Below the pieces are notes generated by a model. That model made no database searches, was not told where the DNA came from, and saw only the letters and a program-made list of their open reading frames with translations. Positions 2,738 to 14,632 of a stretch of DNA of 14,632 nucleotides are shown here, in pieces; within the stretch, counting starts at the first letter, position 1, and each line of letters starts with the position of its first letter. The stretch is taken from UHGV virus genome UHGV-0270538. The stretch is one strand, 5' to 3'. Made by a program: the position numbers and the translations under genes. The stretch comes from a virus.

Positions 2738-3634
2738 ATGCCTGCTGTTGACCTTTCCCAGTTACCGGAACCCGCCATCATCGCGGAGCCTGATTTTGAG
2801 GCAATTCTGGCTGACACAAAGGCCATGATGATTGCGTCCTATCCTGCCGAACAGCGTGAAGCCGTCTCCGCCGCGCTGGAGCTGGAATCGGAACCCCTGA
2901 ACGTTATCGCTCAAACCATGTCTTTTCGTGAAATGCTGTTACGCCAGCGGGTTAACGAGGGCGCACGCGCCTGCATGTTAAGCCACGGTTCAGGGACAAA
3001 TCTGGACAACCTCGCGGGCAATATGAACACAAAGCGCCTGGTTATCACTCCGGCAACGGATACCACCGACGCGGTGATGGAGAGCGACACCTCGCTGAGA
3101 TTGCGGGCGCAGCGGGCGTATGACGGCCTGAGTGTTGCTGGCCCGTCAGGTGCATACGAGTATTTTGCCCGCAGCGCCAGCGGTCTGGTGCGCGATGCGC
3201 GGGCTATCAGTCCGTCTCCGGCCTGTGTGACGGTTTCCATCCTGTCCACTGAAGGCGACGGCACAGCAACGGAGGCGTTGCTTAATACCGTTCGCGCCGT
3301 TCTGAATGCAGAGGATACCCGCCCGGTGGCCGACCGCCTTACTGTACAGAGCGCCAGAATCGTGACATGGCGGCTGAATGCAAAACTGTACTTTTACCCC
3401 GGCCCGGAATCCGAACCTATTCTGGCCGCGGCGGAATCGTCATTCAGGAAGTGGCTGGCTGAACAGGGGCTTATCGGTCAGGACGTGGCGTTGTCCGCCA
3501 TTGCTGCCGCACTTCATGTGCACGGCGTGCAACGCGTGGAGATAATCGAACCCACACAGAATATGGCCATCAGCGACATACAGGCGGCGCGCTGTGAGTC
3601 ATTTACCATCAGCGAAGGTGGGCGCAATGAGTAA
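2738..3634 (+). CDS. J: baseplate assembly protein J (P2 gpJ-like)
   Basis: 298 aa; LSQLPEP, ESEPL, GLSVAGPSGAYEYF, SPSPACVT, RPVADRLTVQSA, YPGPESEPI and LHVHGVQRVE closely parallel recalled gpJ; GAGGGAG SD before ATG 2738. Confidence 0.9.
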   Translation: MPAVDLSQLPEPAIIAEPDFEAILADTKAMMIASYPAEQREAVSAALELESEPLNVIAQTMSFREMLLRQRVNEGARACMLSHGSGTNLDNLAGNMNTKRLVITPATDTTDAVMESDTSLRLRAQRAYDGLSVAGPSGAYEYFARSASGLVRDARAISPSPACVTVSILSTEGDGTATEALLNTVRAVLNAEDTRPVADRLTVQSARIVTWRLNAKLYFYPGPESEPILAAAESSFRKWLAEQGLIGQDVALSAIAAALHVHGVQRVEIIEPTQNMAISDIQAARCESFTISEGGRNE

Positions 3635-4235: not shown

Positions 4236-5839
4236 CAGTGAAATACTACGCCATTCTGACTAATCAGGGCGCAGCACGACTGGCTAACGCGACGATGCTC
4301 GGCAGTAAGCTGAATCTGACGCAAATGGCCGTTGGTGATGCAAATGGTGTGTTACCAACACCAGACCCTGCACAAACAAAACTGATTAACCAGAAACGCA
4401 TTGCACCGCTGAATCTTCTGAGTGTTGACCCTAACAATCAGAGCCAGATTATTGCGGAGCAAATCATCCCTGAAAACGAGGGAGGATTCTGGATCCGTGA
4501 GATTGGTCTTTATGATGATGAAGGTGTACTCATTGCGGTGGCAAACTGCCCGGAAACGTACAAACCGCAGTTGCAGGAAGGCAGTGGACGCACCCAGACT
4601 ATCCGCATGATTCTGGTTGTCACGAACACCGAAGCCATCACGCTGAAAATCGACCCGTCTGTGGTTCTGGCAACCCGCAAATATGTGGATGATAAAATCT
4701 CAGAGCACGAACAGTCACGACGTCACCCGGACGCCTCGCTGACCGCAAAAGGTTTTACTCAGTTAAGCAGTGCAATTAACAGTGAATCAGAAACACTGGC
4801 CGCAACACCGAAAGCAGTTAAGGCTGCATATGACCTGGCTGACGGGAAATATACCGCCCAGAACGCCACCACAACACAAAAAGGGATTGTTCAGCTCAGT
4901 AGCGCCACGAACAGCACGTCTGAAACGCTGGCAGCGACACCAAAAGCTGTTAAGGCGGTAATGGATGAAACGAGCAAGAAAGCACCATTAAACAGCCCGG
5001 CACTGACCGGAACGCCAACAACACCAACAGCGCCACAGGGGACTAATAGTACCCAGATCGCAAGCACGGCTTTCGTTATGGCCGCGATTGCCGCACTTGT
5101 AGATTCGTCACCTGATGCACTGAACACGCTGAACGAACTGGCTGCGGCGCTGGGCAATGACCCGAATTTTGCGACCACCATGACTAACGCGCTTGCGGGT
5201 AAGCAACCGAAGGATGCCACCCTGACGGCGCTGGCGGAGCTTGCTACATCAGCAGATAAACTCCCATATTTTACAGGAGCAGATCGTGCCGCGTTAACCG
5301 CGTTGACAAGTGTTGGACGTGCCATTCTTGGTAAAACCAGCACTCAGGGAGTTCTTGATTACCTTGGTTTGGGAGAAGGCTCTGTATTACCCGTTGGTGT
5401 GCCTGTTCCGTGGCCTTCAGCCACACTGCCAACAGGCTGGCTGAAATGCAACGGGGCGGCATTTTCTGCTGAAGAATACCCGGAACTGGCAAAGGCTTAC
5501 CCGACAAATATATTGCCTGATTTACGTGGTGAATTTATTCGTGGCTGGGATGACGGGCGCGGAGTGGACAGTAGCCGGACGTTGTTGTCGTGGCAAAAAG
5601 GCTCTTATCTGGTTCAGGAAGCCAATATATCACCCGACAGCGTGGTGCAGTTTTCGGTAAACGACATTGCCCTGCTGGGATGGGATAAAACTGAAACCAA
5701 TTCAGATATTCTCAGAGCGAAAAGTATACCTACAGAATATATCTGGAACCCAGTTCCAGTGGGAGCCTGGGGGATTCAGTATCTGGGTTACGCAAGGCCA
5801 CGTAACATTGCATTTAACTACATCGTAAGGGCTGCATGA
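4232..5839 (+). CDS. H: tail fibre protein H, constant N-terminal part fused to the currently expressed variable C-terminal cassette
   Basis: 535 aa; ATGA overlap with I stop; N-terminal two thirds strongly resemble P2 gpH, including the repeated QLSSA-NS-SETLAATPKAVK motif. After the crossover site (5352-5377) the C-terminus carries a tail-collar-type signature (GWLKCNGAAFS ... LPDLRGEFIRGWD). Confidence 0.9.
   Translation: MTVKYYAILTNQGAARLANATMLGSKLNLTQMAVGDANGVLPTPDPAQTKLINQKRIAPLNLLSVDPNNQSQIIAEQIIPENEGGFWIREIGLYDDEGVLIAVANCPETYKPQLQEGSGRTQTIRMILVVTNTEAITLKIDPSVVLATRKYVDDKISEHEQSRRHPDASLTAKGFTQLSSAINSESETLAATPKAVKAAYDLADGKYTAQNATTTQKGIVQLSSATNSTSETLAATPKAVKAVMDETSKKAPLNSPALTGTPTTPTAPQGTNSTQIASTAFVMAAIAALVDSSPDALNTLNELAAALGNDPNFATTMTNALAGKQPKDATLTALAELATSADKLPYFTGADRAALTALTSVGRAILGKTSTQGVLDYLGLGEGSVLPVGVPVPWPSATLPTGWLKCNGAAFSAEEYPELAKAYPTNILPDLRGEFIRGWDDGRGVDSSRTLLSWQKGSYLVQEANISPDSVVQFSVNDIALLGWDKTETNSDILRAKSIPTEYIWNPVPVGAWGIQYLGYARPRNIAFNYIVRAA
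5352..5377. repeat. invertase crossover site (gix/hix-like), left; inside H at the constant/variable junction
   Basis: ttcttgattaccttggtttgggagaa; resembles recalled hixL/gix (TTCTTGAAAACC-AA-GGTTTTTGATAA). Its distal 14 bp (5364-5377) form a perfect inverted repeat with 7303-7316. Confidence 0.65.
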
Positions 5840-6456
5840 TGAGCAAGAAAATCATGACTACAGCGGTGCTGAATGAATCGCGGCTGGCAACAGTTGCAGG
5901 AGAGGTTGTTGTCCACAGCTACGATAATAAGACGCGGGAATACCTTTGCACGTCAACCGAATATCTGGCTGTGGGCGTTGGCCTTCCTGCACATTCATGC
6001 ACTGATGCCCCCGGGGAAAGGCGGGCTGGTTATGTGATTTGCCGCACTGCTGACCTGACCGCGTGGGAGTATGTGCCGGACCATCGGGGTGAGACAGTCT
6101 ATAACACAGAAACCCGTGAGGCAGCAGAAATTACCACTCCGGGTGATTACCCTGAAAACACAACCACTGTCGCACCGTTAACGCCATACGATAAATGGGA
6201 TGGTGAGGAATGGGTGACCGATACAGATGCGCAACATCGTGCCGCTGTAGAAGCGGCAGAAACACAACGCCAGTCGCTGATTGATACTGCAATGGCTTCC
6301 ATTAGTCTGATTCAGCTGAAATTACAGGCCGGGCGGAAACTGACGCAGGCAGAAACAACCCGGCTTAACGCTGTGCTGGATTACATTGACGCGGTGACGG
6401 CAACAGATACCAGTACCGCGCCGGATATCAATTGGCCTGCTCCCCCGGAGGCGTAG
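5836..6456 (+). CDS. G: tail fibre assembly chaperone G (Tfa, Mu U-like), cognate to the expressed H cassette
   Basis: 206 aa; ATGA overlap with H stop; C-terminal Tfa signature (TSTAPDINWPAPPEA); lies inside the invertible segment. Confidence 0.85.
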   Translation: MMSKKIMTTAVLNESRLATVAGEVVVHSYDNKTREYLCTSTEYLAVGVGLPAHSCTDAPGERRAGYVICRTADLTAWEYVPDHRGETVYNTETREAAEITTPGDYPENTTTVAPLTPYDKWDGEEWVTDTDAQHRAAVEAAETQRQSLIDTAMASISLIQLKLQAGRKLTQAETTRLNAVLDYIDAVTATDTSTAPDINWPAPPEA

Positions 6457-6844
6457 GCCAGACGGGATTTGATGTATCAACGCGCATCAGCAAGACCCGG
6501 TATTTTTTCCATTCAGATAACGCGGCGGTTTCTTCTGCCGTCGCGATTTCCGCATCAAAAGCATCCTGTCTCCAGACTATTTCCTTATCAGCCATAGAAC
6601 GCAATACCGTTCTTTTCTGTTCAGCCTGAATAATCTGTTGTTCAGCGGAGAGTGGCGGGATATCAATCCACGCAGGATTACCATTTTTATCAGCCCCCAG
6701 CGTTTTGCCTTCTGGCGCTACGCCTGTGTAAATTGCCATTGTTTCATCATCAACATCAGCGCCATTTTCAGGCCATGAACCGGCGCTGATATATACCTCT
6801 TTTAGTGCTTTCGGATAGAAAGAGCCTTTATAAAATTTATTCAT
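6428..6844 (-). CDS. alternative tail fibre assembly chaperone G' (Tfa), silent in this orientation
   Basis: Minus-strand ORF 6428..6874; preferred start is ATG at 6844 (MNKFYKG...), 2 nt after the H' stop with a GGGG SD-like stretch upstream. C-terminal Tfa signature (WKKYRVLLMRVDTSNPVWPTPP). Converges on G with a 29-bp 3' overlap. Confidence 0.8.
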   Translation of the reverse strand: MNKFYKGSFYPKALKEVYISAGSWPENGADVDDETMAIYTGVAPEGKTLGADKNGNPAWIDIPPLSAEQQIIQAEQKRTVLRSMADKEIVWRQDAFDAEIATAEETAALSEWKKYRVLLMRVDTSNPVWPTPPGEQAN

Positions 6845-6846
6845 TC

Positions 6847-7316
6847 TTAATACCCCAGCGCGATAAAACAACAATCTTCGGTGCCCTCTCCGGATGGCGA
6901 CCAGTTCTGAATACTGATGTGCGTTCTGCTGGCAATACGCACATTCATCGCGGCATTGTAGCCAGATGTTCCACGGTTTCCGGTCGCAAACAAGCCTGCA
7001 TAGGGAAAAGCAAATGGTAAGGCATATCCAGCATCAGCTCCCTTTTGTGTTGCCACCGTTCCCCACTGCAACATAAGTTTCACCGGGTTTCCTGTCGTCG
7101 CAATGCATGGAATGTAGATGTAGCCATTACCTGACATCATTGACCTGAAGCTGTCTAAATCCAGTAACTTCGAGGCATTATCTGCTCCAACATCTCGTGT
7201 TGCAGCGGTCCCTAACTGGAGCGCATTTCGGAAGGCTGATACATCAGAAATATCAGATCCATTAGCCGATTTCTGCATAGCTCTGGAGGCTCTATTTATC
7301 GTTTCTCCCAAACCAA
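6847..7316 (-). CDS. alternative tail fibre C-terminal cassette H' (promoterless, no own start; expressed only after inversion)
   Basis: Minus-strand open frame running from the crossover site (7303-7328) to TAA at 6847-6849. It encodes ...GLGE at the site, the same junction peptide as H (LGLGE at 5366-5377). The ORF-track Met at 7356 lies upstream of the crossover site and is probably not used. Confidence 0.7.
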
Positions 7317-7328
7317 CGTTTAAGAAAA
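7303..7328. repeat. invertase crossover site (gix/hix-like), right; inverted copy 55 bp upstream of the invertase gene
   Basis: Plus strand ttctcccaaaccaacgtttaagaaaa; reverse complement ttttcttaaacg-tt-ggtttgggagaa shares the core and a 12-bp half-site exactly with the left site. Position just upstream of the invertase gene matches Mu gixR/gin. Confidence 0.65.
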
Positions 7329-7383
7329 TGCAGAGATTACGGCTAACTGGCATCATCCCCGGTTTTTATTCAGGGGATCCATC

Positions 7384-7983
7384 ATGCTTATTGGCTATGT
7401 CCGCGTATCAACAAATGACCAGAATACAGAATTGCAGCGTAACGCGCTGGAGTGCGCAGGATGTGAACTGATTTTTGAAGATAAAATCAGCGGAACGAAA
7501 TCAGCCAGACCGGGATTGAAAAAACTGCTCAGAACGCTATCAGAAGGAGATACGCTGGTTGTCTGGAAGCTGGACAGACTGGGCAGAAGTATGAAACACC
7601 TGATCACGCTTATTGAGGAATTGCGGGAAAAAGGTGTTAATTTCCGTAGTCTGACGGACAGCATTGACACATCAACACCCATGGGGCGTTTCTTTTTTCA
7701 CGTCATGGGAGCTTTAGCCGAAATGGAACGTGAATTAATTGTAGAGCGTACACTGGCCGGGCTGGCAGCAGCACGCGCACAAGGACGCATTGGCGGACGT
7801 CGCCCGAAGTTGACAAAAGAACAACACGAGCAAATAGCGAGGCTGATTAAAAACGGTCATGACAGGAAACAACTGGCGATCATTTACGACATCGGCATAT
7901 CGACGATTTATCGTTATCACCCTGTAGGCGATATACAGGCTGAAGAAACAACCAGGCAGACTCAGGAAAATGAAAACCGCTAA
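7384..7983 (+). CDS. site-specific DNA invertase, serine recombinase of the Gin/Pin/Cin/Hin family
   Basis: 199 aa; N-terminus MLIGYVRVSTNDQNT with the catalytic Ser in VRVST; conserved VVWKLDRLGRSMKHL, SLTDSIDTS, MGRFFFHVMGALAEMERELI and a C-terminal HTH region (ISTIYRY). AGGGGA SD 6 nt before the ATG. Confidence 0.95.
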   Translation: MLIGYVRVSTNDQNTELQRNALECAGCELIFEDKISGTKSARPGLKKLLRTLSEGDTLVVWKLDRLGRSMKHLITLIEELREKGVNFRSLTDSIDTSTPMGRFFFHVMGALAEMERELIVERTLAGLAAARAQGRIGGRRPKLTKEQHEQIARLIKNGHDRKQLAIIYDIGISTIYRYHPVGDIQAEETTRQTQENENR

Positions 7984-8002
7984 TCTGACCATTAGCGGTT
8001 TT
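7973..8002. terminator. putative bidirectional intrinsic terminator between the convergent invertase and U genes
   Basis: Perfect 12-bp inverted repeat aaaaccgctaat / attagcggtttt with a 6-nt loop (ctgacc). The GC core stem is followed by a T-run on both strands. It overlaps the invertase stop codon (7981-7983) and ends 7 bp before the U stop. Confidence 0.5.
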
Positions 8003-8009
8003 GCGTTAA

Positions 8010-8504
8010 TCAAAACAGCCCTTTAACGGAGCTGGCCGCGCTGTTAAGGGATGATGTGACCTTATCTTTGAAGCCGGACAGCATATCACTGAACGATGAG
8101 GATTGCAGGCGCTCCCGCAAATCCTCATCACAGCGTTCAAGAGTCAGTGAAAATTCTATCTTTTTCGCCTTACCGTAGCGATCAAACTCGGAGCGGGTCG
8201 TATTCGTTCCGGTCAGGACATACATGCCGTAAATCTGCCCGACACCATCAATCAGAGGCCAGGGGCGTCCTGTATATGCCTGCGTGGTCAGCAACGAAAG
8301 CGACACTTCGCCACCTGTAATTTCAGGATAAAGCACGCCGGAAAGCACGATGCGATCATCACCTGCGCCGATATACTGCCAGCTTGCTGAACGGTTAACG
8401 CGTTCATTTTTCACATGCCGCCAGCTTTTGTTTTGCTGTAACTGCTGATGCGGCAATGTGCGCAGCTCAAAAACAAACATGCCGTAGATCATCATCATGG
8501 CCAT
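8010..8504 (-). CDS. U: tail protein U (sheath terminator, P2 gpU-like)
   Basis: 164 aa; MFVFELRTLPHQ, YPEITGGEVSL, WPLIDGVG and FSLTLER resemble gpU. GGAG lies only 2 nt before the first ATG, so the true start may be the third Met (8498). Confidence 0.85.
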   Translation of the reverse strand: MAMMMIYGMFVFELRTLPHQQLQQNKSWRHVKNERVNRSASWQYIGAGDDRIVLSGVLYPEITGGEVSLSLLTTQAYTGRPWPLIDGVGQIYGMYVLTGTNTTRSEFDRYGKAKKIEFSLTLERCDEDLRERLQSSSFSDMLSGFKDKVTSSLNSAASSVKGLF

Positions 8505-8510
8505 GACTCC

Positions 8511-11354
8511 TCAATCTTTATCGTAAAAACTGCCACGTCCGGCACGGTCGCGTCGTTCCAATTCTGCCCTGACCATTTCACCGACCAGTTTCGCCAGTTC
8601 GCGGGGATTCTGCGTAACAACGTTATGCAGATGAACATGAATTTCACCGCCAAATCCGGAGACAACAGGCTCCCGGTTACGGGAAGTTGCAGGAACTGAT
8701 GCCACTGGCGATCGTATGGCCTCCGCCACCGGGCGGGAGCTGGCCGCAACAACAGGGACCAGCGCCGGAGGCAGAGGAGTCGGGACCACGGGTGTGATGT
8801 TGATTGCGGAAGCAGGCTTACTGACCTGCGCAATCTTCCGCTCCTGCCACTCCCCACGAACAGCAAGTGCGCGGGGCAGATTCTTAAAGACAATATCGCC
8901 GGGGCCAATGCGTTTTTTCGTCTCATCAACCAGCTTACCTGTGTTATCAGCAATTTTGCTGAGTCTGCGTAGCGTACCGGTATTGCTGTCTGTGAGCGGT
9001 TTGTTGTCTTTGGGTTTATCACCTCCGGTGCCATTGCCATTTTCCACAGGCTTCGGCGGATTGATTTTCGCCAGGTCCCCCTGAAGCAAGGCAACCTTGT
9101 CCTGAAGAATGGCCGCACGCTGTGCGTCTTCGATTTTCTTACGCGCCCTTTCCGCTTCATCCGGAAGGACGCCAAGTTTTTCAAGTATCCACGCCAGCGT
9201 ATCCAGTAGCATTTTTGCAGGCGTCAGAACAAGTTGTAACGCACCGCCAAGAACGTTACCGAATATCTCGCCAGCACTGGTACATTTATCCAGCGTTTCC
9301 TTGCTGGACTCCATCGGTGACAACAGCGATTTAAACCAGTTAAACACCTGGCTGATCCCGCTTCCGATTGCGTCAAAAACAGGACCAAACCGTTCAAAGG
9401 TTTCGCGCAACGGGGTCAGCCTTTCCATAATCCCGCTGAACACCCCGGCAAAAAATGCCTTAATGGGTTCCCAGTATTTCCAGATGAGAACCGCCGCAGC
9501 CACAAACGCAGCAGCAATCAATCCAACCGGACTGAACAGCGCCCCGATAGCGCCTCCCAGCAAAGAAACAGAACCCGTCAGCATTCCCCACAGCGCAGGC
9601 AACACCCGGACGACATTCATTGACCGGGTAAGAATGTCAAAACCAAGACGCAGGGTGGCCAGCTTTCCGTAAAGCACCCCAATAACCAGCGACAACGAGC
9701 CAATCGTTGCAGTCATTGCCAGCAACGCACCGCCTGCTATCAGTAGCTGGCGCGTCAGTACCGGATGGGCCTGCGCCAGCGAGGTGATTTTTTCAAGCAC
9801 CCGCGTGAGCCACTGCGTGACAGAACGCAGCGGACCGTCAACCAGATCACTGATGCGAATACGAAGACCTTCCCATGCGCTGTCGAGATTTTTCAGGTCC
9901 CCATCAAGATTATCGGCCATTACTTTTGCAACGCGATCGGCCTCTCCCCTTGCCCCCTGCAATTCTCTGGTCAGTTTTTGCAGCTCTCCTGAACCAGCCG
10001 CCGCAACAAGCGTCTGTAAACCAACGAACGCCTCTTCTCCGGCGATGTCCTTGAAGAAGGAAATCTGGTCCACCTGTCCGTATTTTTGTGTCGCCTTATA
10101 GAGATCAAGCAGCACATCCTCCATCGGGCGCATTTTGCCTCTGGCGTCAGCAACTGACACCCCCAGCTCTTTCAGTGCATCAGCCGCAGCTTTTGGCGGT
10201 GATGCAAGGCGGGACAGACTTGCGCGCATGGCCGTACCAGCATCGCTTCCGCGAAGACCATTATTGGCAAGCATCCCGGCCATGGCCGCCGCTTCTTCAA
10301 GACTGATACCAAGTTTTGCGGCAACCGGACCGGTATACTTCATGGTTTCGCCCAGCGCGCGTAAATCAGTATTGGTCCGGGTGAATGCTGCTGTCAGCGT
10401 ATCGCCAACCCGGTCCATTTGATCGGCTGTCAGGTTGAACTGTGTGAGGATATTGGAGCCTATATCAGCCGTCTCGCCGAGTTCGACGCCACCTGCCAGC
10501 GCCATATTAAGAACACCGGGCAATGCGGCCTGAATGGCCTGCGGAGTAAAACCAGCCATTGCCAGAAAGCTCTGCCCACTGGCGGCATCACTCGCAGTAA
10601 ACTGTGTTTCAGAACCAAGTTTTAACGCCTGCTCACGCAGCGCCTTAAACTGCGGGCTGTTTTTGTCGATTCGCGTCAGTGCCTGAACGCGGGACATCTC
10701 TTTCCCGAACCCGATCGCAGGCTGCAAAAAACGCCCGGCAGCATAGCCGCCAGCCGCTGCCGCACCAATTGCCAGCGCACCACCTGTTTTCAGTTTTCCC
10801 GCGGTTTCCTGCGCGCGCGAATACCGCTCACGCGCCCGCGTTACACGCGCAAGCGCCTGCCGTTCGCGTTCAAGCTGGTTGTTGTACTGTTCGGTGCGTC
10901 TGATGGCCTGCTGGATGGTGTTATCGCTGCCTGTCAGGGAAATGCCGTGGCGTTTCAGCTCTCCGCCAAGCTCCCGCATTTTCTGAATTTCCCGTGTGCG
11001 CGATTCATTCAGGCGTTCAAGCCGGGTGCTTAACTGCTGCATCAGCTTTTGTTGTTTTTCGCTGAGCACTGTACCCGTGCGTTGTAACTGATTAAGGGCG
11101 TTAAGCTGGCGTCGTGCTTTCACGATACCCGCATCCGCTTTACTGACAGCGTCGCGGGCGCGCTCAAATGATCGCGCCTGACGCTCGAGATTTTTGATCG
11201 CCCCCTGCGTTCGCTGGATGGAGTCACCAAACTGCCCCATCAGGCGGCGGGCGTTTTCGGCAGGCCGGGTCAGCCTGTCAACGGCGCTGAAAGCGACCCG
11301 GATATCAAGAGTCTTCATTGTCTGCATTCCCGCTGCGAAGTGCCGCCCGCTCAC
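8511..11354 (-). CDS. T: tail tape measure protein T (P2 gpT-like)
   Basis: 947 aa, Ala/Gly/Leu-rich with coiled-coil N-terminal region and hydrophobic central segments; sits between E/E' and U. The GTG at 11354 is uncertain; in-frame ATGs at 11327 and 11318 are alternatives. Overlaps the end of E'. Confidence 0.9.
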   Translation of the reverse strand: MSGRHFAAGMQTMKTLDIRVAFSAVDRLTRPAENARRLMGQFGDSIQRTQGAIKNLERQARSFERARDAVSKADAGIVKARRQLNALNQLQRTGTVLSEKQQKLMQQLSTRLERLNESRTREIQKMRELGGELKRHGISLTGSDNTIQQAIRRTEQYNNQLERERQALARVTRARERYSRAQETAGKLKTGGALAIGAAAAGGYAAGRFLQPAIGFGKEMSRVQALTRIDKNSPQFKALREQALKLGSETQFTASDAASGQSFLAMAGFTPQAIQAALPGVLNMALAGGVELGETADIGSNILTQFNLTADQMDRVGDTLTAAFTRTNTDLRALGETMKYTGPVAAKLGISLEEAAAMAGMLANNGLRGSDAGTAMRASLSRLASPPKAAADALKELGVSVADARGKMRPMEDVLLDLYKATQKYGQVDQISFFKDIAGEEAFVGLQTLVAAAGSGELQKLTRELQGARGEADRVAKVMADNLDGDLKNLDSAWEGLRIRISDLVDGPLRSVTQWLTRVLEKITSLAQAHPVLTRQLLIAGGALLAMTATIGSLSLVIGVLYGKLATLRLGFDILTRSMNVVRVLPALWGMLTGSVSLLGGAIGALFSPVGLIAAAFVAAAVLIWKYWEPIKAFFAGVFSGIMERLTPLRETFERFGPVFDAIGSGISQVFNWFKSLLSPMESSKETLDKCTSAGEIFGNVLGGALQLVLTPAKMLLDTLAWILEKLGVLPDEAERARKKIEDAQRAAILQDKVALLQGDLAKINPPKPVENGNGTGGDKPKDNKPLTDSNTGTLRRLSKIADNTGKLVDETKKRIGPGDIVFKNLPRALAVRGEWQERKIAQVSKPASAINITPVVPTPLPPALVPVVAASSRPVAEAIRSPVASVPATSRNREPVVSGFGGEIHVHLHNVVTQNPRELAKLVGEMVRAELERRDRAGRGSFYDKD

Positions 11355-11834
11355 GCCAGCTAACCACTTCGCCGGGCGTCATCATGAAGATTTCGGCGGG
11401 CGACCAGTTAAAAATGGCGGCAATATCCGCCACAAAGTCTTCTATGTGCTCAAAGCACACAACCGTGATCAGGCTTCCGTCGCCTGTTCGCTCTTCCCGC
11501 CAGAGTCCGCACCGCTCAAAAAATTTACGGCAACCACACATAACTGAATAAAATCACGGGATGCCATTTTTTTGATCGTCACTTCATCCAGTCGTGGCGA
11601 GGTCACGCGTGACAGCAGCGTAAACATGGATTCCGCTTTCAGATTCAGCACATCAGACAGCGACAAATCTCGCAGAGATCCAGCCTGCTCAATAGCCCCG
11701 GTGATCTCCACATACGTGATTTTTTCGCCGCCTCGCTCAATTGGTTGGGTAAGTTTTACGCCACGCTCACTGGTTTCTTTCACAGTGTCAGTAACTACCG
11801 TGTTTTCGGTATCGATGTTTTTCGTCTCTTTCAT
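11305..11834 (-). CDS. E': tail assembly chaperone E+E' fusion made by programmed -1 ribosomal frameshift (about 176 aa)
   Basis: The -1 frame is open from 11553 down to TGA at 11305-11307. Slippery heptamer U-UUU-UUG at 11523..11517 on the coding strand, in frame as AAU-UUU-UUG (N-F-L). Same heptamer and gene position as P2 E/E'. Confidence 0.7.
11469..11834 (-). CDS. E: tail assembly chaperone E (P2 gpE-like; lambda G analogue)
   Basis: 121 aa, acidic; AAGGAG SD 8 nt upstream of ATG 11834; lies between FII and T and contains the T-TTT-TTG slippery site. Confidence 0.8.
   Translation of the reverse strand: MKETKNIDTENTVVTDTVKETSERGVKLTQPIERGGEKITYVEITGAIEQAGSLRDLSLSDVLNLKAESMFTLLSRVTSPRLDEVTIKKMASRDFIQLCVVAVNFLSGADSGGKSEQATEA
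11517..11523 (-). other. programmed -1 frameshift slippery heptamer TTTTTTG (E to E')
   Basis: Plus strand caaaaaa at 11517-11523; on the minus strand it reads T-TTT-TTG in the E frame, with an open -1 frame downstream. Confidence 0.75.
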
Positions 11835-11888
11835 CAGGAAACTCCTTTCAGTCAGAGGCGACGCACTGCGCCGCCTGCATATTACTTA

Positions 11889-12401
11889 TCAGCCAAGCCC
11901 GAGCGCGGAACGGATGCGATCGGGCACAATGTCCTTGCCGTCCTTCCGGTAGATGTGGTTCAACAGGTCGATTTCCCACAGCGGGCGATCGTTAACGCTC
12001 AGCTTGTAGTAGGTGTTTTTGACAGCGTAAGTGTGTGATGTGGCTTCGCCCTGTTTGGCCTCCCCCATATCAATTTCCGTCACACGCCCGCGCATCTCGA
12101 TTTCATACAGATCGCTTTCTGCATCGGTGTAGTATTCACCCGCAAAACGCAGCAGCGTGCTGTCAATCGTGCCGCCATATTTAAGGAACAGCGCACGAAC
12201 AGCTCCCCCCATGACAAAGCTCGCATCAAGCGCGGAGTCGTCCAGACCGAGATCAATACTTACCGCACCCATCATGCCACCACCCCGGTAGCTGTCGGTT
12301 TTGCGCGTCAGCTTAGGCAGAGTGACGGACGTCACCTTACCCACTTCGTTTTCACCATCCACAAACAGCGTAAAAAAGCGAAGATGTTTTGGTACAGCCA
12401 T
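11889..12401 (-). CDS. FII: tail tube protein FII (P2 gpFII-like)
   Basis: 170 aa; VTLPKLTRK, YRGGGM, IDLGLDD, RFAG and EIDMGEAKQGE resemble gpFII; GGGAGG SD; start overlaps FI stop by 1 nt (TGATG). Confidence 0.9.
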   Translation of the reverse strand: MAVPKHLRFFTLFVDGENEVGKVTSVTLPKLTRKTDSYRGGGMMGAVSIDLGLDDSALDASFVMGGAVRALFLKYGGTIDSTLLRFAGEYYTDAESDLYEIEMRGRVTEIDMGEAKQGEATSHTYAVKNTYYKLSVNDRPLWEIDLLNHIYRKDGKDIVPDRIRSALGLG

Positions 12402-13585
12402 CAGGCACCTCCCAGCACCGCAAATGCGGGACCAAAGAATTCATCAGTAAACGTCTGGTAAAGCTCCATGTCTTCCAGTGGCGGAACGGGCGTATATTTG
12501 TAGCGAATACGCACACGTCCCTGACGTAAATCCGTGGTGCCGTTATCCACCACGTCATACCAGCACTCCGCGCCAATCAGTTTCCCGGCAGTAACCAGCG
12601 AATCCAGTTTTGCCCTGATGGCACTGATAACATCCTTCACGTTCGCAGGCGTCAGTGGACTGTCGATGGTTTCAAACTGCGCTTCCGCAATTGAATCAGC
12701 CAGCACCTGTGCGGTTCGGGTATACACCTCAAAGATGTAGGCGTTCGTTTCCGGTGTGCGGTTGCCCCAGAAGCGGAACCCGTTACGACGAATAATGGTC
12801 GTGATTTCTTTGTTGTTGAGGCTGTTGGCATCACTGTCTTCGGCCTGTAACGACCAGAACACATGCCTCGACATCCCCAGCACATTTTTAACCGGAACGT
12901 TGGACAGCGATTTGTGCCAGCCCTGCTCATGGTCAATGTACGCACGAAGGCCGCACGCATAAGCAGGCGCGGGGAACGTTTCGTTTTTGCCACTTTTCGG
13001 GTTGTAGGCGATGAAGTCCGGCCATAAGAGCATCACCTCACGTTCGTTGAATTTCTGGCGGTAGGTAATTGCCTCAGCCATCGTGTTACAGTCATGACAT
13101 GAGGCATACACAAACGCGCGCAGTTTACCCGCAATCACGCACAGGGATTTTGTCACCGCCTCCGTGTCCAGCTCCGGCGCGGCCAGAATACGCGGACGGT
13201 ATCCGATGCTTTCATCCTGCTCTGCAACAAGCAGCGCATACATCCCCGTATAGCTGCCGTCAGATTCAGAACCACCGATAACCAGTTGATCCTGCGTCTT
13301 ACCGCCTTCTTCTTTGTGTTCAGCCACGCGAACGACGATCACTTTTGTGCTCACCTGGTCTGCAATAGCCTTAAGCGCACGATAAAGCGTCCCCGTAGTC
13401 CCGCATTTTCCCAGCACGTCATTGACGCGGGTCAGCAGTGTGGGCTTGTTCAGCGGGAACAGCTCCGCGTCCGCATCATCCGCCGTTGCCACGATACCGA
13501 TAACACTGGAATCAACATCATTAATCGCTGTTACCAGGTCGGTACTTTCCGTAACACGGGCACCATGAAAACGAGTTTCACTCAT
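12401..13585 (-). CDS. FI: contractile tail sheath protein FI (P2 gpFI-like)
   Basis: 394 aa; FPLNKP, KLRAFVY, YRQ-F, WPDF, DHEQGWHKSLSNV, IRRNGFRFWGNRT, YTRTAQV and YKYTPVPPLE match recalled gpFI; AAGGGG SD 8 nt before the ATG. Confidence 0.95.
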   Translation of the reverse strand: MSETRFHGARVTESTDLVTAINDVDSSVIGIVATADDADAELFPLNKPTLLTRVNDVLGKCGTTGTLYRALKAIADQVSTKVIVVRVAEHKEEGGKTQDQLVIGGSESDGSYTGMYALLVAEQDESIGYRPRILAAPELDTEAVTKSLCVIAGKLRAFVYASCHDCNTMAEAITYRQKFNEREVMLLWPDFIAYNPKSGKNETFPAPAYACGLRAYIDHEQGWHKSLSNVPVKNVLGMSRHVFWSLQAEDSDANSLNNKEITTIIRRNGFRFWGNRTPETNAYIFEVYTRTAQVLADSIAEAQFETIDSPLTPANVKDVISAIRAKLDSLVTAGKLIGAECWYDVVDNGTTDLRQGRVRIRYKYTPVPPLEDMELYQTFTDEFFGPAFAVLGGA

Positions 13586-13742
13586 AGCTTCAGCCCCTTG
13601 TATCCGTTAAATGATTCGGCAACAATCATCACCCACCACGCGCGTAATCTCACCCCTGCGCCGTTCTCCCGCCACGGCGACAACAAAAAGCAGTAACCCC
13701 CTATGCACGCACATGCGACCATGCCGCACAGGGAGGGAACAG

Positions 13743-14632
13743 ATGACCGATACCACCATGCAATTGCTCAGTCAGAGCACAGACCCCGTGAAAATGCCGG
13801 ATTTTGATATTCTCGCGGAGGGGGAAACACTGTCCGGCGTGGCAGAGCGCCTGATGAGCCTGTCACTGACCGACAACCGGGGATTTGACGCGGACCTGCT
13901 CACCATCACGCTGGATGATGCGGATGGTCAGTTGCAGCTACCGCCACGGGGCGCGCGCCTGACGGTTCTCATTGGCTGGAAAGGAGAACCGCTGACAGAA
14001 AAAGGCACTTACATTGTTGATGAAATCGCTCACGAAGGACCGCCGGACAGGCTGACTGTTTCAGCCAGAAGCGCAGATTTTCGGGATGAATTTAACGTTA
14101 AACGTGAGGTGTCCTGGCATGATGTGACCATTGAGCGTGTGGTATCCGCCATCGCTCACCGGTACGGTCTGAAACCGCAAATCAGCGAAATGCTGATGGA
14201 TATTGAAATCGACCACGCCGACCAGACCGAAGAAAGCGACATGTCCTTCCTTACGCGCATGGCGGAAATGCTGGGCGCAATCACTACGGTAAAAAGCAGT
14301 AATCTGTTATTCATCATGCCAGGCGGTGGCGTGAACGCACAGGGTCAGCCGTTGCCATCGTTCGCCATCACACGCAGCAGCGGCGATCGCCATCAGTTTC
14401 GCATTGCTGACCGCGAAGCGTATACGGGGGTACGCGCTTACTGGCTTGATCTTAATTACGGGAAAAAGAAAAAAGTCAGCGTGAAACGCCGCAAACCGCC
14501 AAAACCCAAAAAGGAGAAAAGCAGCAGCCGTGAAGGTGATTATATGGAAGGCGCGGAAGGCAATGTGTTTGTGTTACGCAAGACTTATCAGAACGAGCAG
14601 GCAGCAAGACGCGCAGCGGCGGCAAAGTGGCA
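13743..14632 (+). CDS. D: tail protein D (P2 gpD-like), 5' part; continues beyond the window
   Basis: Open frame from ATG 13743 (GGGAGGG SD 6 nt upstream) to the window end, 296 codons. Motifs SLSLTDNRGF, DDADGQ, RSADFR, SWHD, QTEESD, FLTRMAE, AYTGV, lysine-rich KKKKVSVKRRKPPKPKKEK and EGDYMEGAEGNVF match gpD. Absent from the ORF track only because no stop falls in the window. Confidence 0.9.
   Translation, partial: MTDTTMQLLSQSTDPVKMPDFDILAEGETLSGVAERLMSLSLTDNRGFDADLLTITLDDADGQLQLPPRGARLTVLIGWKGEPLTEKGTYIVDEIAHEGPPDRLTVSARSADFRDEFNVKREVSWHDVTIERVVSAIAHRYGLKPQISEMLMDIEIDHADQTEESDMSFLTRMAEMLGAITTVKSSNLLFIMPGGGVNAQGQPLPSFAITRSSGDRHQFRIADREAYTGVRAYWLDLNYGKKKKVSVKRRKPPKPKKEKSSSREGDYMEGAEGNVFVLRKTYQNEQAARRAAAAKW

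What the first reader, a model, noticed from the sequence alone, without database searches (positions are those of the whole stretch)
13586..13742. Divergent FI-D intergenic region: D is separated from its operon
In P2, D is the last gene of the F operon with no promoter of its own. Here D starts 157 bp from the divergent FI start and has a strong SD (GGGAGGG). This region must hold the FI promoter on the minus strand and any promoter that now drives D. I could not find a canonical TGT-N12-ACA Ogr/Delta-type element; only a TGT-N20-ACA dyad at 13599-13624. D expression is therefore unexplained unless a promoter lies here.
Basis: inference. Interest (0 to 1): 0.45.

Follow-up and report, generated by a model that had tools for sequence, protein, structure and literature searches.

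The report
Two-way late promoter between FI and D
The 157-bp gap between the tail-sheath gene FI and the tail gene D of this P88-type (P2-like) E. coli prophage most likely holds one Ogr-type activator site flanked by two back-to-back late promoters, which explains how D is expressed after being cut off from its old operon; it is an ordinary, widespread arrangement whose promoters have simply never been annotated.

Summary
FI (12401-13585, minus) and D (ATG 13743, plus) diverge across 157 bp, and D has the Shine-Dalgarno GGGAGGG. The junction is not a defect. It is 96-97% identical in the plaque-forming phages P88 and PhiSM, occurs in about 1,100 of 5,426 complete E. coli genomes, and is shared by at least four Peduoviridae genera.

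There is no exact TGT-N12-ACA, but a one-mismatch version, TCT-N12-ACA, lies at 13665-13682 (extended form GTTCT-N12-ACAACAAAAA). It is conserved in all 23 diverged relatives and is canonical TGT-N12-ACA in Kluyvera, Klebsiella phage 3LV2017 and Salmonella phage SEN5. The same motif recurs in the P|O divergent region of each complete phage genome examined.

Conserved -10-like hexamers lie 43.5 bp from the dyad centre on both sides: GATGAT for FI and TG-n-GACCAT for D. This is the spacing at P2's mapped pP/pO pair. An Ogr/Delta zinc-finger gene follows D in every relative.

Best reading: one activator site drives pF leftward and a new pD (D-ogr) rightward. The predicted transcription starts are about 13618 (minus) and 13729 (plus). 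No transcript data were available, so the promoters are inferred. Interest is low to moderate.

The parts
13586..13742 (.). FI|D divergent intergenic region (157 bp), proposed to be a bidirectional late control region
   Evidence: 96-99% identical in 13 phage records. None of these records carries a regulatory feature here.
13665..13682 (.). Proposed Ogr-type activator site TCT-N12-ACA, centre 13673.5. The extended conserved motif is GTTCT-N12-ACAACAAAAA, 13663-13689.
   Evidence: Conserved in 23 of 23 diverged relatives as (T/C)(C/G)T-N12-ACAA. Canonical TGT-N12-ACA in Kluyvera, 3LV2017 and SEN5. The same motif is in the P|O region of P88, T5282H and 3LV2017. The half-sites are invariant and the spacer is polymorphic in 73 close relatives.
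13625..13630 (-). Predicted -10 hexamer of pF (GATGAT on the minus strand), starting 43.5 bp from the dyad centre
   Evidence: nATnAT is invariant in alignment A1. The distance is the same in 22 of 23 relatives and is 44.5 in 3LV2017. It equals the P2 pP/pO geometry.
13648..13653 (-). -35-like hexamer of pF (GTGAGA on the minus strand), 17-bp spacer to GATGAT
   Evidence: The conserved block CTCAC on the plus strand (T68 C69 A70 invariant; C at -23 invariant). Assigning it as a -35 element is inference.
13618..13618 (-). Predicted pF transcription start (about 7 nt past the -10), giving a leader of about 33 nt before the FI ATG
   Evidence: Inference from the P2 spacing, where mapped starts lie 7 nt past the hexamers. 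Not measured.
13714..13722 (+). Predicted extended -10 of a D promoter (pD): TG-C-GACCAT. The hexamer 13717-13722 starts 43.5 bp from the dyad centre.
   Evidence: T132, G133, A136 and T140 are invariant in alignment A1. A at +45 is invariant in 23 sequences. No polymorphism in 73 close relatives.
13729..13729 (+). Predicted pD transcription start, giving a leader of about 14 nt that carries the Shine-Dalgarno sequence
   Evidence: Inference from the P2 spacing. Not measured.
13731..13737 (+). Shine-Dalgarno GGGAGGG of D
   Evidence: A purine-rich block is present at the same place in all relatives.
13743..14632 (+). D (tail/baseplate hub gene), 5' part, running off the window. In relatives it is followed by an ogr-like gene.
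   Evidence: 97% identical to P88 D, which matches Pfam Phage_GPD. The ogr-like ORF at L001 34476-34736 matches Pfam Ogr_Delta, E = 5e-14.
12401..13585 (-). FI tail sheath gene, first gene of the inverted F operon
8010..12401 (-). Rest of the inverted F operon: FII 11889-12401, E 11469-11834 (plus the E' frameshift product), T 8511-11354, U 8010-8504
   Evidence: Pfam Phage_tube and Phage_P2_GpU. P88 annotation.
7973..8002 (-). Hairpin terminator just past the U stop codon, the likely end of the F operon. It lies between U and the convergent invertase gene.
   Evidence: 12-bp stem followed by a T-rich tail.

Best explanation
The FI|D gap is a bidirectional, Ogr-dependent late promoter region built like P2's pP/pO region.

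Proposed mechanism:
- One partially dyad-symmetric activator site (TCT-N12-ACA, centre 13673.5) lies near the middle of the gap.
- A weak sigma-70 promoter for FI-FII-E-T-U reads leftward: -35-like GTGAGA, 17-bp spacer, -10 GATGAT, start about 13618.
- A weak extended -10 promoter for D reads rightward: TG-n-GACCAT, start about 13729. Just beyond the window it probably also reads into the ogr-like gene.
- Both -10 elements start 43.5 bp from the dyad centre, which puts the site at about -55.5 of each start.
- The phage's Ogr/Delta-family zinc-finger activator binds the dyad and recruits RNA polymerase in both directions. D therefore stays under late control although an ancient inversion of the FI-U block cut it off from pF.

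Shown here: the arrangement, the motif, its conservation, its recurrence at P|O, the geometry, and the presence of an Ogr homologue next to D in relatives.

Inferred: the transcription starts, binding by Ogr, and activation in both directions.
For: 1. The junction is functional and common. It is 96-97% identical in the plaque-forming phages P88 and PhiSM (PMC5285337, PMC6456863). It covers at least 80% of the query in 1,116 of 5,426 complete E. coli genomes.

2. The arrangement is old and broad. All 23 genome loci with FI at least 69% identical have D divergent from FI and followed by an ogr-like gene. Complete genomes of four genera show it: Xuanwuvirus, Novemvirus, Reginaelenavirus and Senquatrovirus. 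ENT90 keeps the P2 order.

3. Conservation across genera (14 sequences, 70% mean column identity). The invariant columns fall on the dyad half-site T, on ACAA..AAAA, on nATnAT of the FI-side -10, on TCA of the -35-like block, and on TG, A2 and T6 of the D-side extended -10.

4. Canonical TGT-N12-ACA occupies the orthologous position in Kluyvera, 3LV2017 (GTTGTG-N10-CACAAC) and SEN5.

5. The same motif type occurs at P|O and FI|D within each complete phage genome examined: P88 and T5282H have TCT-N12-ACAACAAAA at both, and 3LV2017 has TGT at both. In T5282H these are the only two genome-wide matches to [TC][CG]T-N12-ACAAC.

6. Geometry equals P2's, where starts are mapped. P2's pP/pO centre is 3071.5, its hexamers start at +/-43.5, and the annotated starts 3016 and 3127 lie 55.5 from the centre. 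The record annotates one 'activator binding site; pO, pP promoters'. P2 pF is at 44.5 and pV at 43.5.

7. Within-species polymorphism. In 73 close relatives 30 of 157 positions vary, but only 1 of the 32 proposed functional positions does (hypergeometric P = 0.005). By contrast 7 of the 12 spacer positions vary (P = 0.002).

8. An Ogr/Delta zinc-finger gene lies 42 bp after D in P88 (Pfam PF04606, E = 5e-14; 42% identical to P2 Ogr).

9. Published precedent. TGT-N12-ACA is the P2 late-promoter consensus, and the same site was assigned to the divergent PP'/PO' pair in phage Smp131 (PMC3931495).
Against: - No transcript, footprint or reporter data exist for this region in anything I could search. 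The starts and the Ogr dependence are predictions.
- The site is not an exact consensus match. One-mismatch matches to a 6-base pattern are common by chance, so the case rests on position and conservation.
- The generic sigma-70 scan found nothing in 13400-13900. This is expected for activator-dependent promoters, but it also means the -10 calls are weak in information (A2 and T6 only).
- The predicted D leader is short, about 14 nt, with the Shine-Dalgarno sequence starting 2-3 nt from the 5' end.
- The conserved TG-n extended -10 on the D side could support activator-independent transcription.
- The activator gene itself lies outside the window.
Confidence: 0.75

Rival explanations
1. The dyad serves only pF. 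D, and the ogr gene behind it, is transcribed from an activator-independent extended -10 promoter in the same gap. D would then be expressed at a low constitutive or early level rather than as a true late gene.
For: The TG-n motif upstream of the D-side hexamer is invariant, and extended -10 promoters can work without a -35 element or an activator (established knowledge). An Ogr-independent pD would also give a way to start ogr expression.
Against: The D-side hexamer keeps a fixed 43.5-44.5 bp distance from the dyad centre in all 23 sequences, while the leaders beyond it carry indels. This mirrors the FI side and P2 pO. The hexamers themselves are poor (GACCAT, GATCCT). In P88 a separate TAGAAT -10-like element lies in the 42-bp D-ogr gap, as read from the sequence; the generic promoter scan did not report it. 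If it works, ogr need not depend on pD, as in P2 where ogr has its own promoter.
Confidence: 0.13
2. A different regulator, not the Ogr homologue, binds the conserved GTTCT-N12-ACAACAAAAA element. Alternatively, each promoter uses its own separate site.
For: Binding was not tested. The left half-site is TCT or CCT in most relatives rather than TGT. P88 also encodes other small DNA-binding or zinc-finger proteins.
Against: The element matches the Ogr/Delta consensus in length and spacing and is exact in three relatives. It occurs just where P2 places its site, at P|O and upstream of FI. Every relative has an Ogr homologue. Only one conserved dyad is visible in the gap.
Confidence: 0.07
3. There is no D promoter here. 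The prophage is defective, or D is read from a distant plus-strand transcript.
For: None beyond the lack of a textbook promoter match.
Against: The same junction is present in the plaque-forming phages P88 and PhiSM (PMC5285337, PMC6456863). D is an essential tail gene in P2. The nearest upstream plus-strand gene is the invertase 5.7 kb away, with a hairpin terminator after it and the whole F operon antisense in between. The D-side promoter features are conserved.
Confidence: 0.03

Closest known systems
Phage P2 pP/pO divergent late promoter region
   Same: Two back-to-back late promoters share one partially dyad-symmetric site. The -10 hexamers start 43.5 bp from the dyad centre on both sides, so the site is at about -55.5 of each start. 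Both depend on an Ogr-family activator encoded next to D.
   Different: Here the pair drives FI-U and D(-ogr) instead of P-Q and O-S. The half-sites read TCT/ACA rather than TGT/CCA. An A-tract (ACAACAAAAA) follows the right half-site. The starts are predicted, not mapped.
Phage P2 pF promoter (F operon FI-FII-E-E'-T-U-D)
   Same: It lies upstream of the orthologous FI gene, with an 18-bp TGT-N12-CCA site and a -10 hexamer 44.5 bp from the centre.
   Different: In P2, pF is unidirectional and D is the last gene of its operon. Here the FI-U block is inverted, D is excluded, and the other face of the site is used for D.
Predicted Ogr-type late promoters of other P2-like phages (Smp131, phiRSY1/phiRSA1)
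   Same: They were recognised by TGT-N12-ACA-like or TGTTGT-N13-ACAACA motifs upstream of late operons. Smp131 assigns one site to a divergent PP'/PO' pair.
   Different: Those phages have rearranged tail modules, but no FI|D divergent junction is reported for them. Their promoters are also predictions.
Hin/Gin/Cin-type invertible segments
   Same: The window has a real one: an invertase at 7384-7983 with 17-bp crossover sites at 5361-5377 and 7303-7319 around the tail-fibre cassettes.
   Different: The FI-U block is not such a switch. No crossover site lies at its borders. The orientation is fixed in all relatives, including phages that have no invertase gene next to U (T5282H, 3LV2017, SEN5).

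Membership tests
P2-type Ogr/Delta-dependent late promoter | Partial dyad TGT-N12-ACA upstream of the promoter | tested here: met
   TCT-N12-ACA at 13665-13682, 5 of 6 bases. P2's own sites are also 5 of 6. The orthologous site is an exact match in three relatives.
P2-type Ogr/Delta-dependent late promoter | Site centred at about -55 from the transcription start | tested here: inconclusive
   No start data exist. The conserved -10-like hexamers start 43.5 bp from the centre on both sides, as at P2 pP, pO and pV where starts are mapped. This predicts -55.5.
P2-type Ogr/Delta-dependent late promoter | Weak sigma-70 promoter: recognisable -10, poor -35 | tested here: met
   GATGAT and GACCAT have conserved A2 and T6. 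The generic consensus scan finds no strong promoter.
P2-type Ogr/Delta-dependent late promoter | Cognate Ogr/Delta zinc-finger activator encoded by the same element | tested here: met
   The gene is outside the window. In P88, whose junction is 96.7% identical, an ORF 42 bp after D matches Pfam Ogr_Delta at E = 5e-14. A homologue is present in all 23 relatives.
P2-type Ogr/Delta-dependent late promoter | Transcription requires the activator and the RNA polymerase alpha subunit (rpoA109-sensitive) | not testable with these tools
   Needs genetics or in vitro transcription.
P2-type Ogr/Delta-dependent late promoter | Lies upstream of morphogenetic (late) operons, and the same motif recurs at the phage's other late promoters | tested here: met
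   The flanking genes are the tail sheath operon and D. The same extended motif is in the P|O gaps of P88, T5282H and 3LV2017.
Shared-site bidirectional late control region (P2 pP/pO type) | A single activator site equidistant from two divergent promoters | tested here: met
   Only one conserved dyad is found. The hexamers are symmetric at +/-43.5 bp. That both promoters are actually used is inferred.
Hin-type invertible DNA switch (considered for the FI-U block) | Inverted crossover sites at both borders, and both orientations found in populations | tested here: not met
   Only two crossover sites exist, and both flank the tail-fibre segment. The orientation is the same in all relatives.

The most novel reading that the evidence does not exclude
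One ancient inversion had breakpoints just upstream of the pF activator site and at the U/D junction. It turned a one-way late promoter into a two-way one. Because the Ogr site is dyad-symmetric, D, and the ogr gene behind it, landed about 70 bp from the far face of the site. D then needed only a -10 element to stay under late control. The result is a D-ogr unit under direct positive feedback and a phage whose late genes may be run from only two shared activator sites, P|O and FI|D. The conserved A-tract next to the right half-site would act as an alpha-subunit (UP-like) contact that favours the rightward promoters.
Probability: 0.4. Interest if true: 0.4.

Novelty: new member of a known kind. 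Interest (0 to 1): 0.3.

Why it matters
P88-type prophages are in about one in five complete E. coli genomes, and related elements occur across Enterobacterales. No phage record I retrieved annotates a promoter here, and some place a spurious 'hypothetical protein' in the gap.

Knowing that one Ogr-type site probably drives both the tail sheath operon and D-ogr gives three things. It gives a testable map of the late regulon. It explains how an essential tail gene survived being cut out of its operon. It identifies a compact two-way, activator-dependent control element that could be used when engineering P2-like phages or tailocins. It does not change the picture of how P2-type late transcription works.

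Tried and rejected
- Exact TGT-N12-ACA search: no match in the gap. The strict pattern is too narrow, because P2's own sites fail it.
- Generic sigma-70 and terminator scan of 13400-13900: nothing found.
- The FI|D gap as a duplicate of the P|O gap: rejected. Outside the motif, ungapped identity is 47 of 150 against 37.5 +/- 5.4 for random P88 segments, and MAFFT does not put the two dyads in register.
- Inversion by the neighbouring Hin-type invertase: rejected.
- A third exact GTTCT-N12-ACAAC match inside gene T (9233-9254): it lacks the A-tract and is absent from other genera, so it is chance.
- A small protein gene in the gap (P88 gp50; window ORFs 13286-13696 plus strand and 13607-13759 minus strand): rejected, because the inter-genus alignment has 1-, 2- and 5-nt indels and no coding pattern.
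- Known RNA families: none in the window. The predicted leaders are unstructured.
- Co-variation between Ogr sequence and TCT/TGT/CCT half-site: no clear pattern.
- Literature: the P88, PhiSM and SEN4/5 papers never mention promoters, Ogr or the inversion. Julien and Calendar 1995 could not be retrieved.

Full report
WHAT IS THERE

The window is the late/tail region of a P88-type (Xuanwuvirus, Peduoviridae) prophage. Genes R, S, V, W, J, I, H and G run on the plus strand up to 6456. An invertible tail-fibre segment follows, then a Hin-family invertase gene (7384-7983, plus). The block U-T-E-FII-FI lies on the minus strand (8010-13585), and D starts on the plus strand at 13743. The gap is 13586-13742 (157 bp), GGGAGGG sits 5 nt before the D ATG, and there is no exact TGT-N12-ACA. 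In P2, D is the last gene of the F operon, which is read from pF. Here D really is separated from that operon.

IS IT A DEFECT?

No. The 1.7-kb junction is 94-97% identical in 13 phage records. These include P88 and Citrobacter phage PhiSM, both described as plaque-forming temperate phages (PMC5285337; PMC6456863). The junction covers at least 80% of the query in 1,116 of 5,426 complete E. coli genomes.

A scan of one genome per species with the FI protein gave 23 loci with FI at least 69% identical. The genera are Salmonella, Citrobacter, Edwardsiella, Enterobacter, Kosakonia, Symbiopectobacterium, Erwinia, Mixta, Pantoea, Izhakiella, Trabulsiella, Kluyvera and Serratia. All 23 have D divergent from FI and followed by an ogr-like gene. 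The loci with FI 32-48% identical show no D within 3 kb upstream.

Complete genomes from four genera show the same inverted FI-U block: P88, phiT5282H (Novemvirus), 3LV2017 (Reginaelenavirus) and SEN5 (Senquatrovirus). Their gaps are 153-157 bp. Three of them have no invertase gene next to U. ENT90 keeps the P2 order. The arrangement is therefore old, fixed and standard for a large clade.

THE ACTIVATOR

P88's record annotates no ogr. However, tblastn with P2 Ogr finds an 86-codon ORF 42 bp after D (L001 34476-34736). It carries the CxxC...CxxxxC motif, matches Pfam Ogr_Delta (E = 5e-14, above the cut-off) and is 42% identical to P2 Ogr. D and ogr thus stayed together, on the same strand, as in P2.

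THE SITE

P2's annotated activator sites read TGT-N12-CCA at pP/pO and pF and TGT-N12-CAA at pV. The published consensus TGT-N12-ACA (PMC3931495) is therefore not met exactly even in P2.

In the window, TCT-N12-ACA lies at 13665-13682 (centre 13673.5). The longer motif GTTCT-N12-ACAACAAAAA recurs exactly in the P|O divergent gap of P88 (L001 14214-14239). ACAACAAAA occurs four times in P88 against 0.5 expected, and two of the four are these sites.

All 23 diverged relatives carry (T/C)(C/G)T-N12-ACAA at the same place. Kluyvera, 3LV2017 (GTTGTG-N10-CACAAC) and SEN5 have the canonical TGT-N12-ACA. Within each complete phage examined, P|O and FI|D carry the same version: TCT in P88 and T5282H, TGT in 3LV2017. 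In T5282H these are the only two genome-wide matches to the degenerate pattern.

THE PROMOTERS

An alignment of 14 diverged gaps has 70% mean column identity, and the invariant columns cluster. They fall on:
- nATnAT on the FI side (window GATGAT, 13630 to 13625 on the minus strand);
- TCA of a CTCAC block, which reads GTGAG on the minus strand, 17 bp upstream of GATGAT, a -35-like element;
- the dyad T and ACAA..AAAA;
- on the D side, TG, then one base, then a hexamer with invariant A2 and T6 (window TG-C-GACCAT, 13714-13722).

Anchoring all 23 sequences on the dyad without gaps shows each hexamer starts 43.5 bp from the centre. The exceptions are the FI-side hexamer of 3LV2017 and the D-side hexamers of the Citrobacter and Edwardsiella loci, at 44.5 bp. 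The leaders beyond the hexamers carry indels.

P2's record gives one 'activator binding site; pO, pP promoters' and mapped starts at 3016 and 3127. The site centre is 3071.5, the hexamers TAGCCT and GAAACT start at +/-43.5, and the starts lie 7 nt past them. P2 pV fits 43.5 and pF fits 44.5. Applying the same rule predicts starts at about 13618 (minus, 33-nt FI leader) and about 13729 (plus, 14-nt D leader that includes the Shine-Dalgarno sequence).

POPULATION CHECK

In 73 close relatives aligned without gaps (32 haplotypes), 30 of the 157 positions vary. Only one singleton falls in the 32 positions proposed as functional from the inter-genus alignment (hypergeometric P = 0.005). In contrast, 7 of the 12 spacer positions inside the dyad vary (P = 0.002). 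Fixed half-sites with a free spacer are what a dimer-type binding site should show.

MECHANISM (INFERRED)

The Ogr homologue binds the central dyad and activates pF leftward and a new pD rightward. P2 Ogr is annotated as doing the same for pP and pO. Transcription from pD probably continues into ogr, as pF transcription does in P2. A TAGAAT element in the 42-bp D-ogr gap, read from the sequence and not reported by the promoter scan, could be ogr's own promoter, as in P2.

A single inversion would produce this layout directly. Its breakpoints would lie upstream of the pF site and at the U/D junction. The F operon now ends at a hairpin terminator (7973-8002) between U and the convergent invertase gene.

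WHAT IT IS NOT

- Not a Hin-type switch. The only crossover sites (5361-5377, 7303-7319) flank the tail-fibre cassettes.
- Not a duplication of the P|O gap.
- Not a small gene. The inter-genus alignment has 1-, 2- and 5-nt indels and no coding pattern.
- Not a known RNA.

LIMITS

No transcript, binding or reporter data were available. The hexamer calls carry little information on their own. The activator gene is outside the window. An activator-independent extended -10 promoter for D cannot be excluded.

The papers on P88, PhiSM and SEN4/5 in the library do not discuss promoters, Ogr or the inversion. None of the 13 phage records annotates a regulatory feature in the gap. As far as I could search, this promoter pair is undescribed, but it is a predictable extension of the P2 model.

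VERDICT

This is a new member of a known kind, of low to moderate interest.

Noticed in passing
window 5361-7983: Invertible tail-fibre segment. Two 17-bp crossover sites (TTCTCCCAAACCAAGGT at 5361-5377 on the minus strand; a one-mismatch copy at 7303-7319 on the plus strand) enclose the H C-terminus and G, plus an inverted alternative pair (6428-6874 and 6847-7356, minus strand). A Hin/Gin-family invertase gene follows at 7384-7983.
   Followed up: partly
window 7973-8002: A 12-bp-stem hairpin with a T-rich tail lies between the stop codons of the convergent invertase and U genes. It probably terminates the inverted F operon. Its stem is flanked by A and T runs on both sides, so it might also terminate the invertase transcript; the scan called it on the minus strand only.
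   Followed up: partly
L001 (P88, NC_026014) 34476-34736: The ogr-like late activator gene (Pfam Ogr_Delta, E = 5e-14) is not annotated in the P88 record. A spurious 'hypothetical protein' gp50 (33155-33286) is annotated across the FI|D promoter gap instead.
   Followed up: yes
L002 (Citrobacter phage Shae_phiSM, OR565851): Product names look shifted. The tail sheath gene is labelled 'late control gene D protein', and the D gene is labelled 'ogr/Delta-like zinc finger family protein'.
   Followed up: no
window 9233-9254 (minus strand), inside gene T: A third exact match to GTTCT-N12-ACAAC, also present in P88. It lacks the A-tract and is absent from T5282H and 3LV2017, so it is probably chance.
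   Followed up: yes
L084 (NZ_JBQPOM010000071, 'Vagococcus sp. WN89Y'): A contig of a Gram-positive genome assembly carries FI, D and ogr that are 98-100% identical in protein sequence to this E. coli-type prophage. This looks like contamination or a mislabelled assembly.
   Followed up: no
L091, L103, L104 (Symbiopectobacterium loci): The ogr-like genes have lost zinc-finger cysteines or carry gaps, and D or FI matches are fragmented in L103, L104 and L135. These prophages appear to be decaying, yet they still keep the dyad and the -10 elements.
   Followed up: no
P88 L001 14152-14305 and 33176-33332; also L141 and L142: In P88, T5282H and 3LV2017 only the two divergent gaps, P|O and FI|D, carry the extended activator motif. 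No pV-like site was seen upstream of V. The whole 11-kb stretch from O to G may therefore be one operon, or it may use a more degenerate site that I did not detect.
   Followed up: partly
L001 10195-10527: P88 gp19, at the end of the early region, has a ClpX-type C4 zinc finger (Pfam zf-C4_ClpX, E = 8e-18). Its function in the phage is unknown.
   Followed up: no
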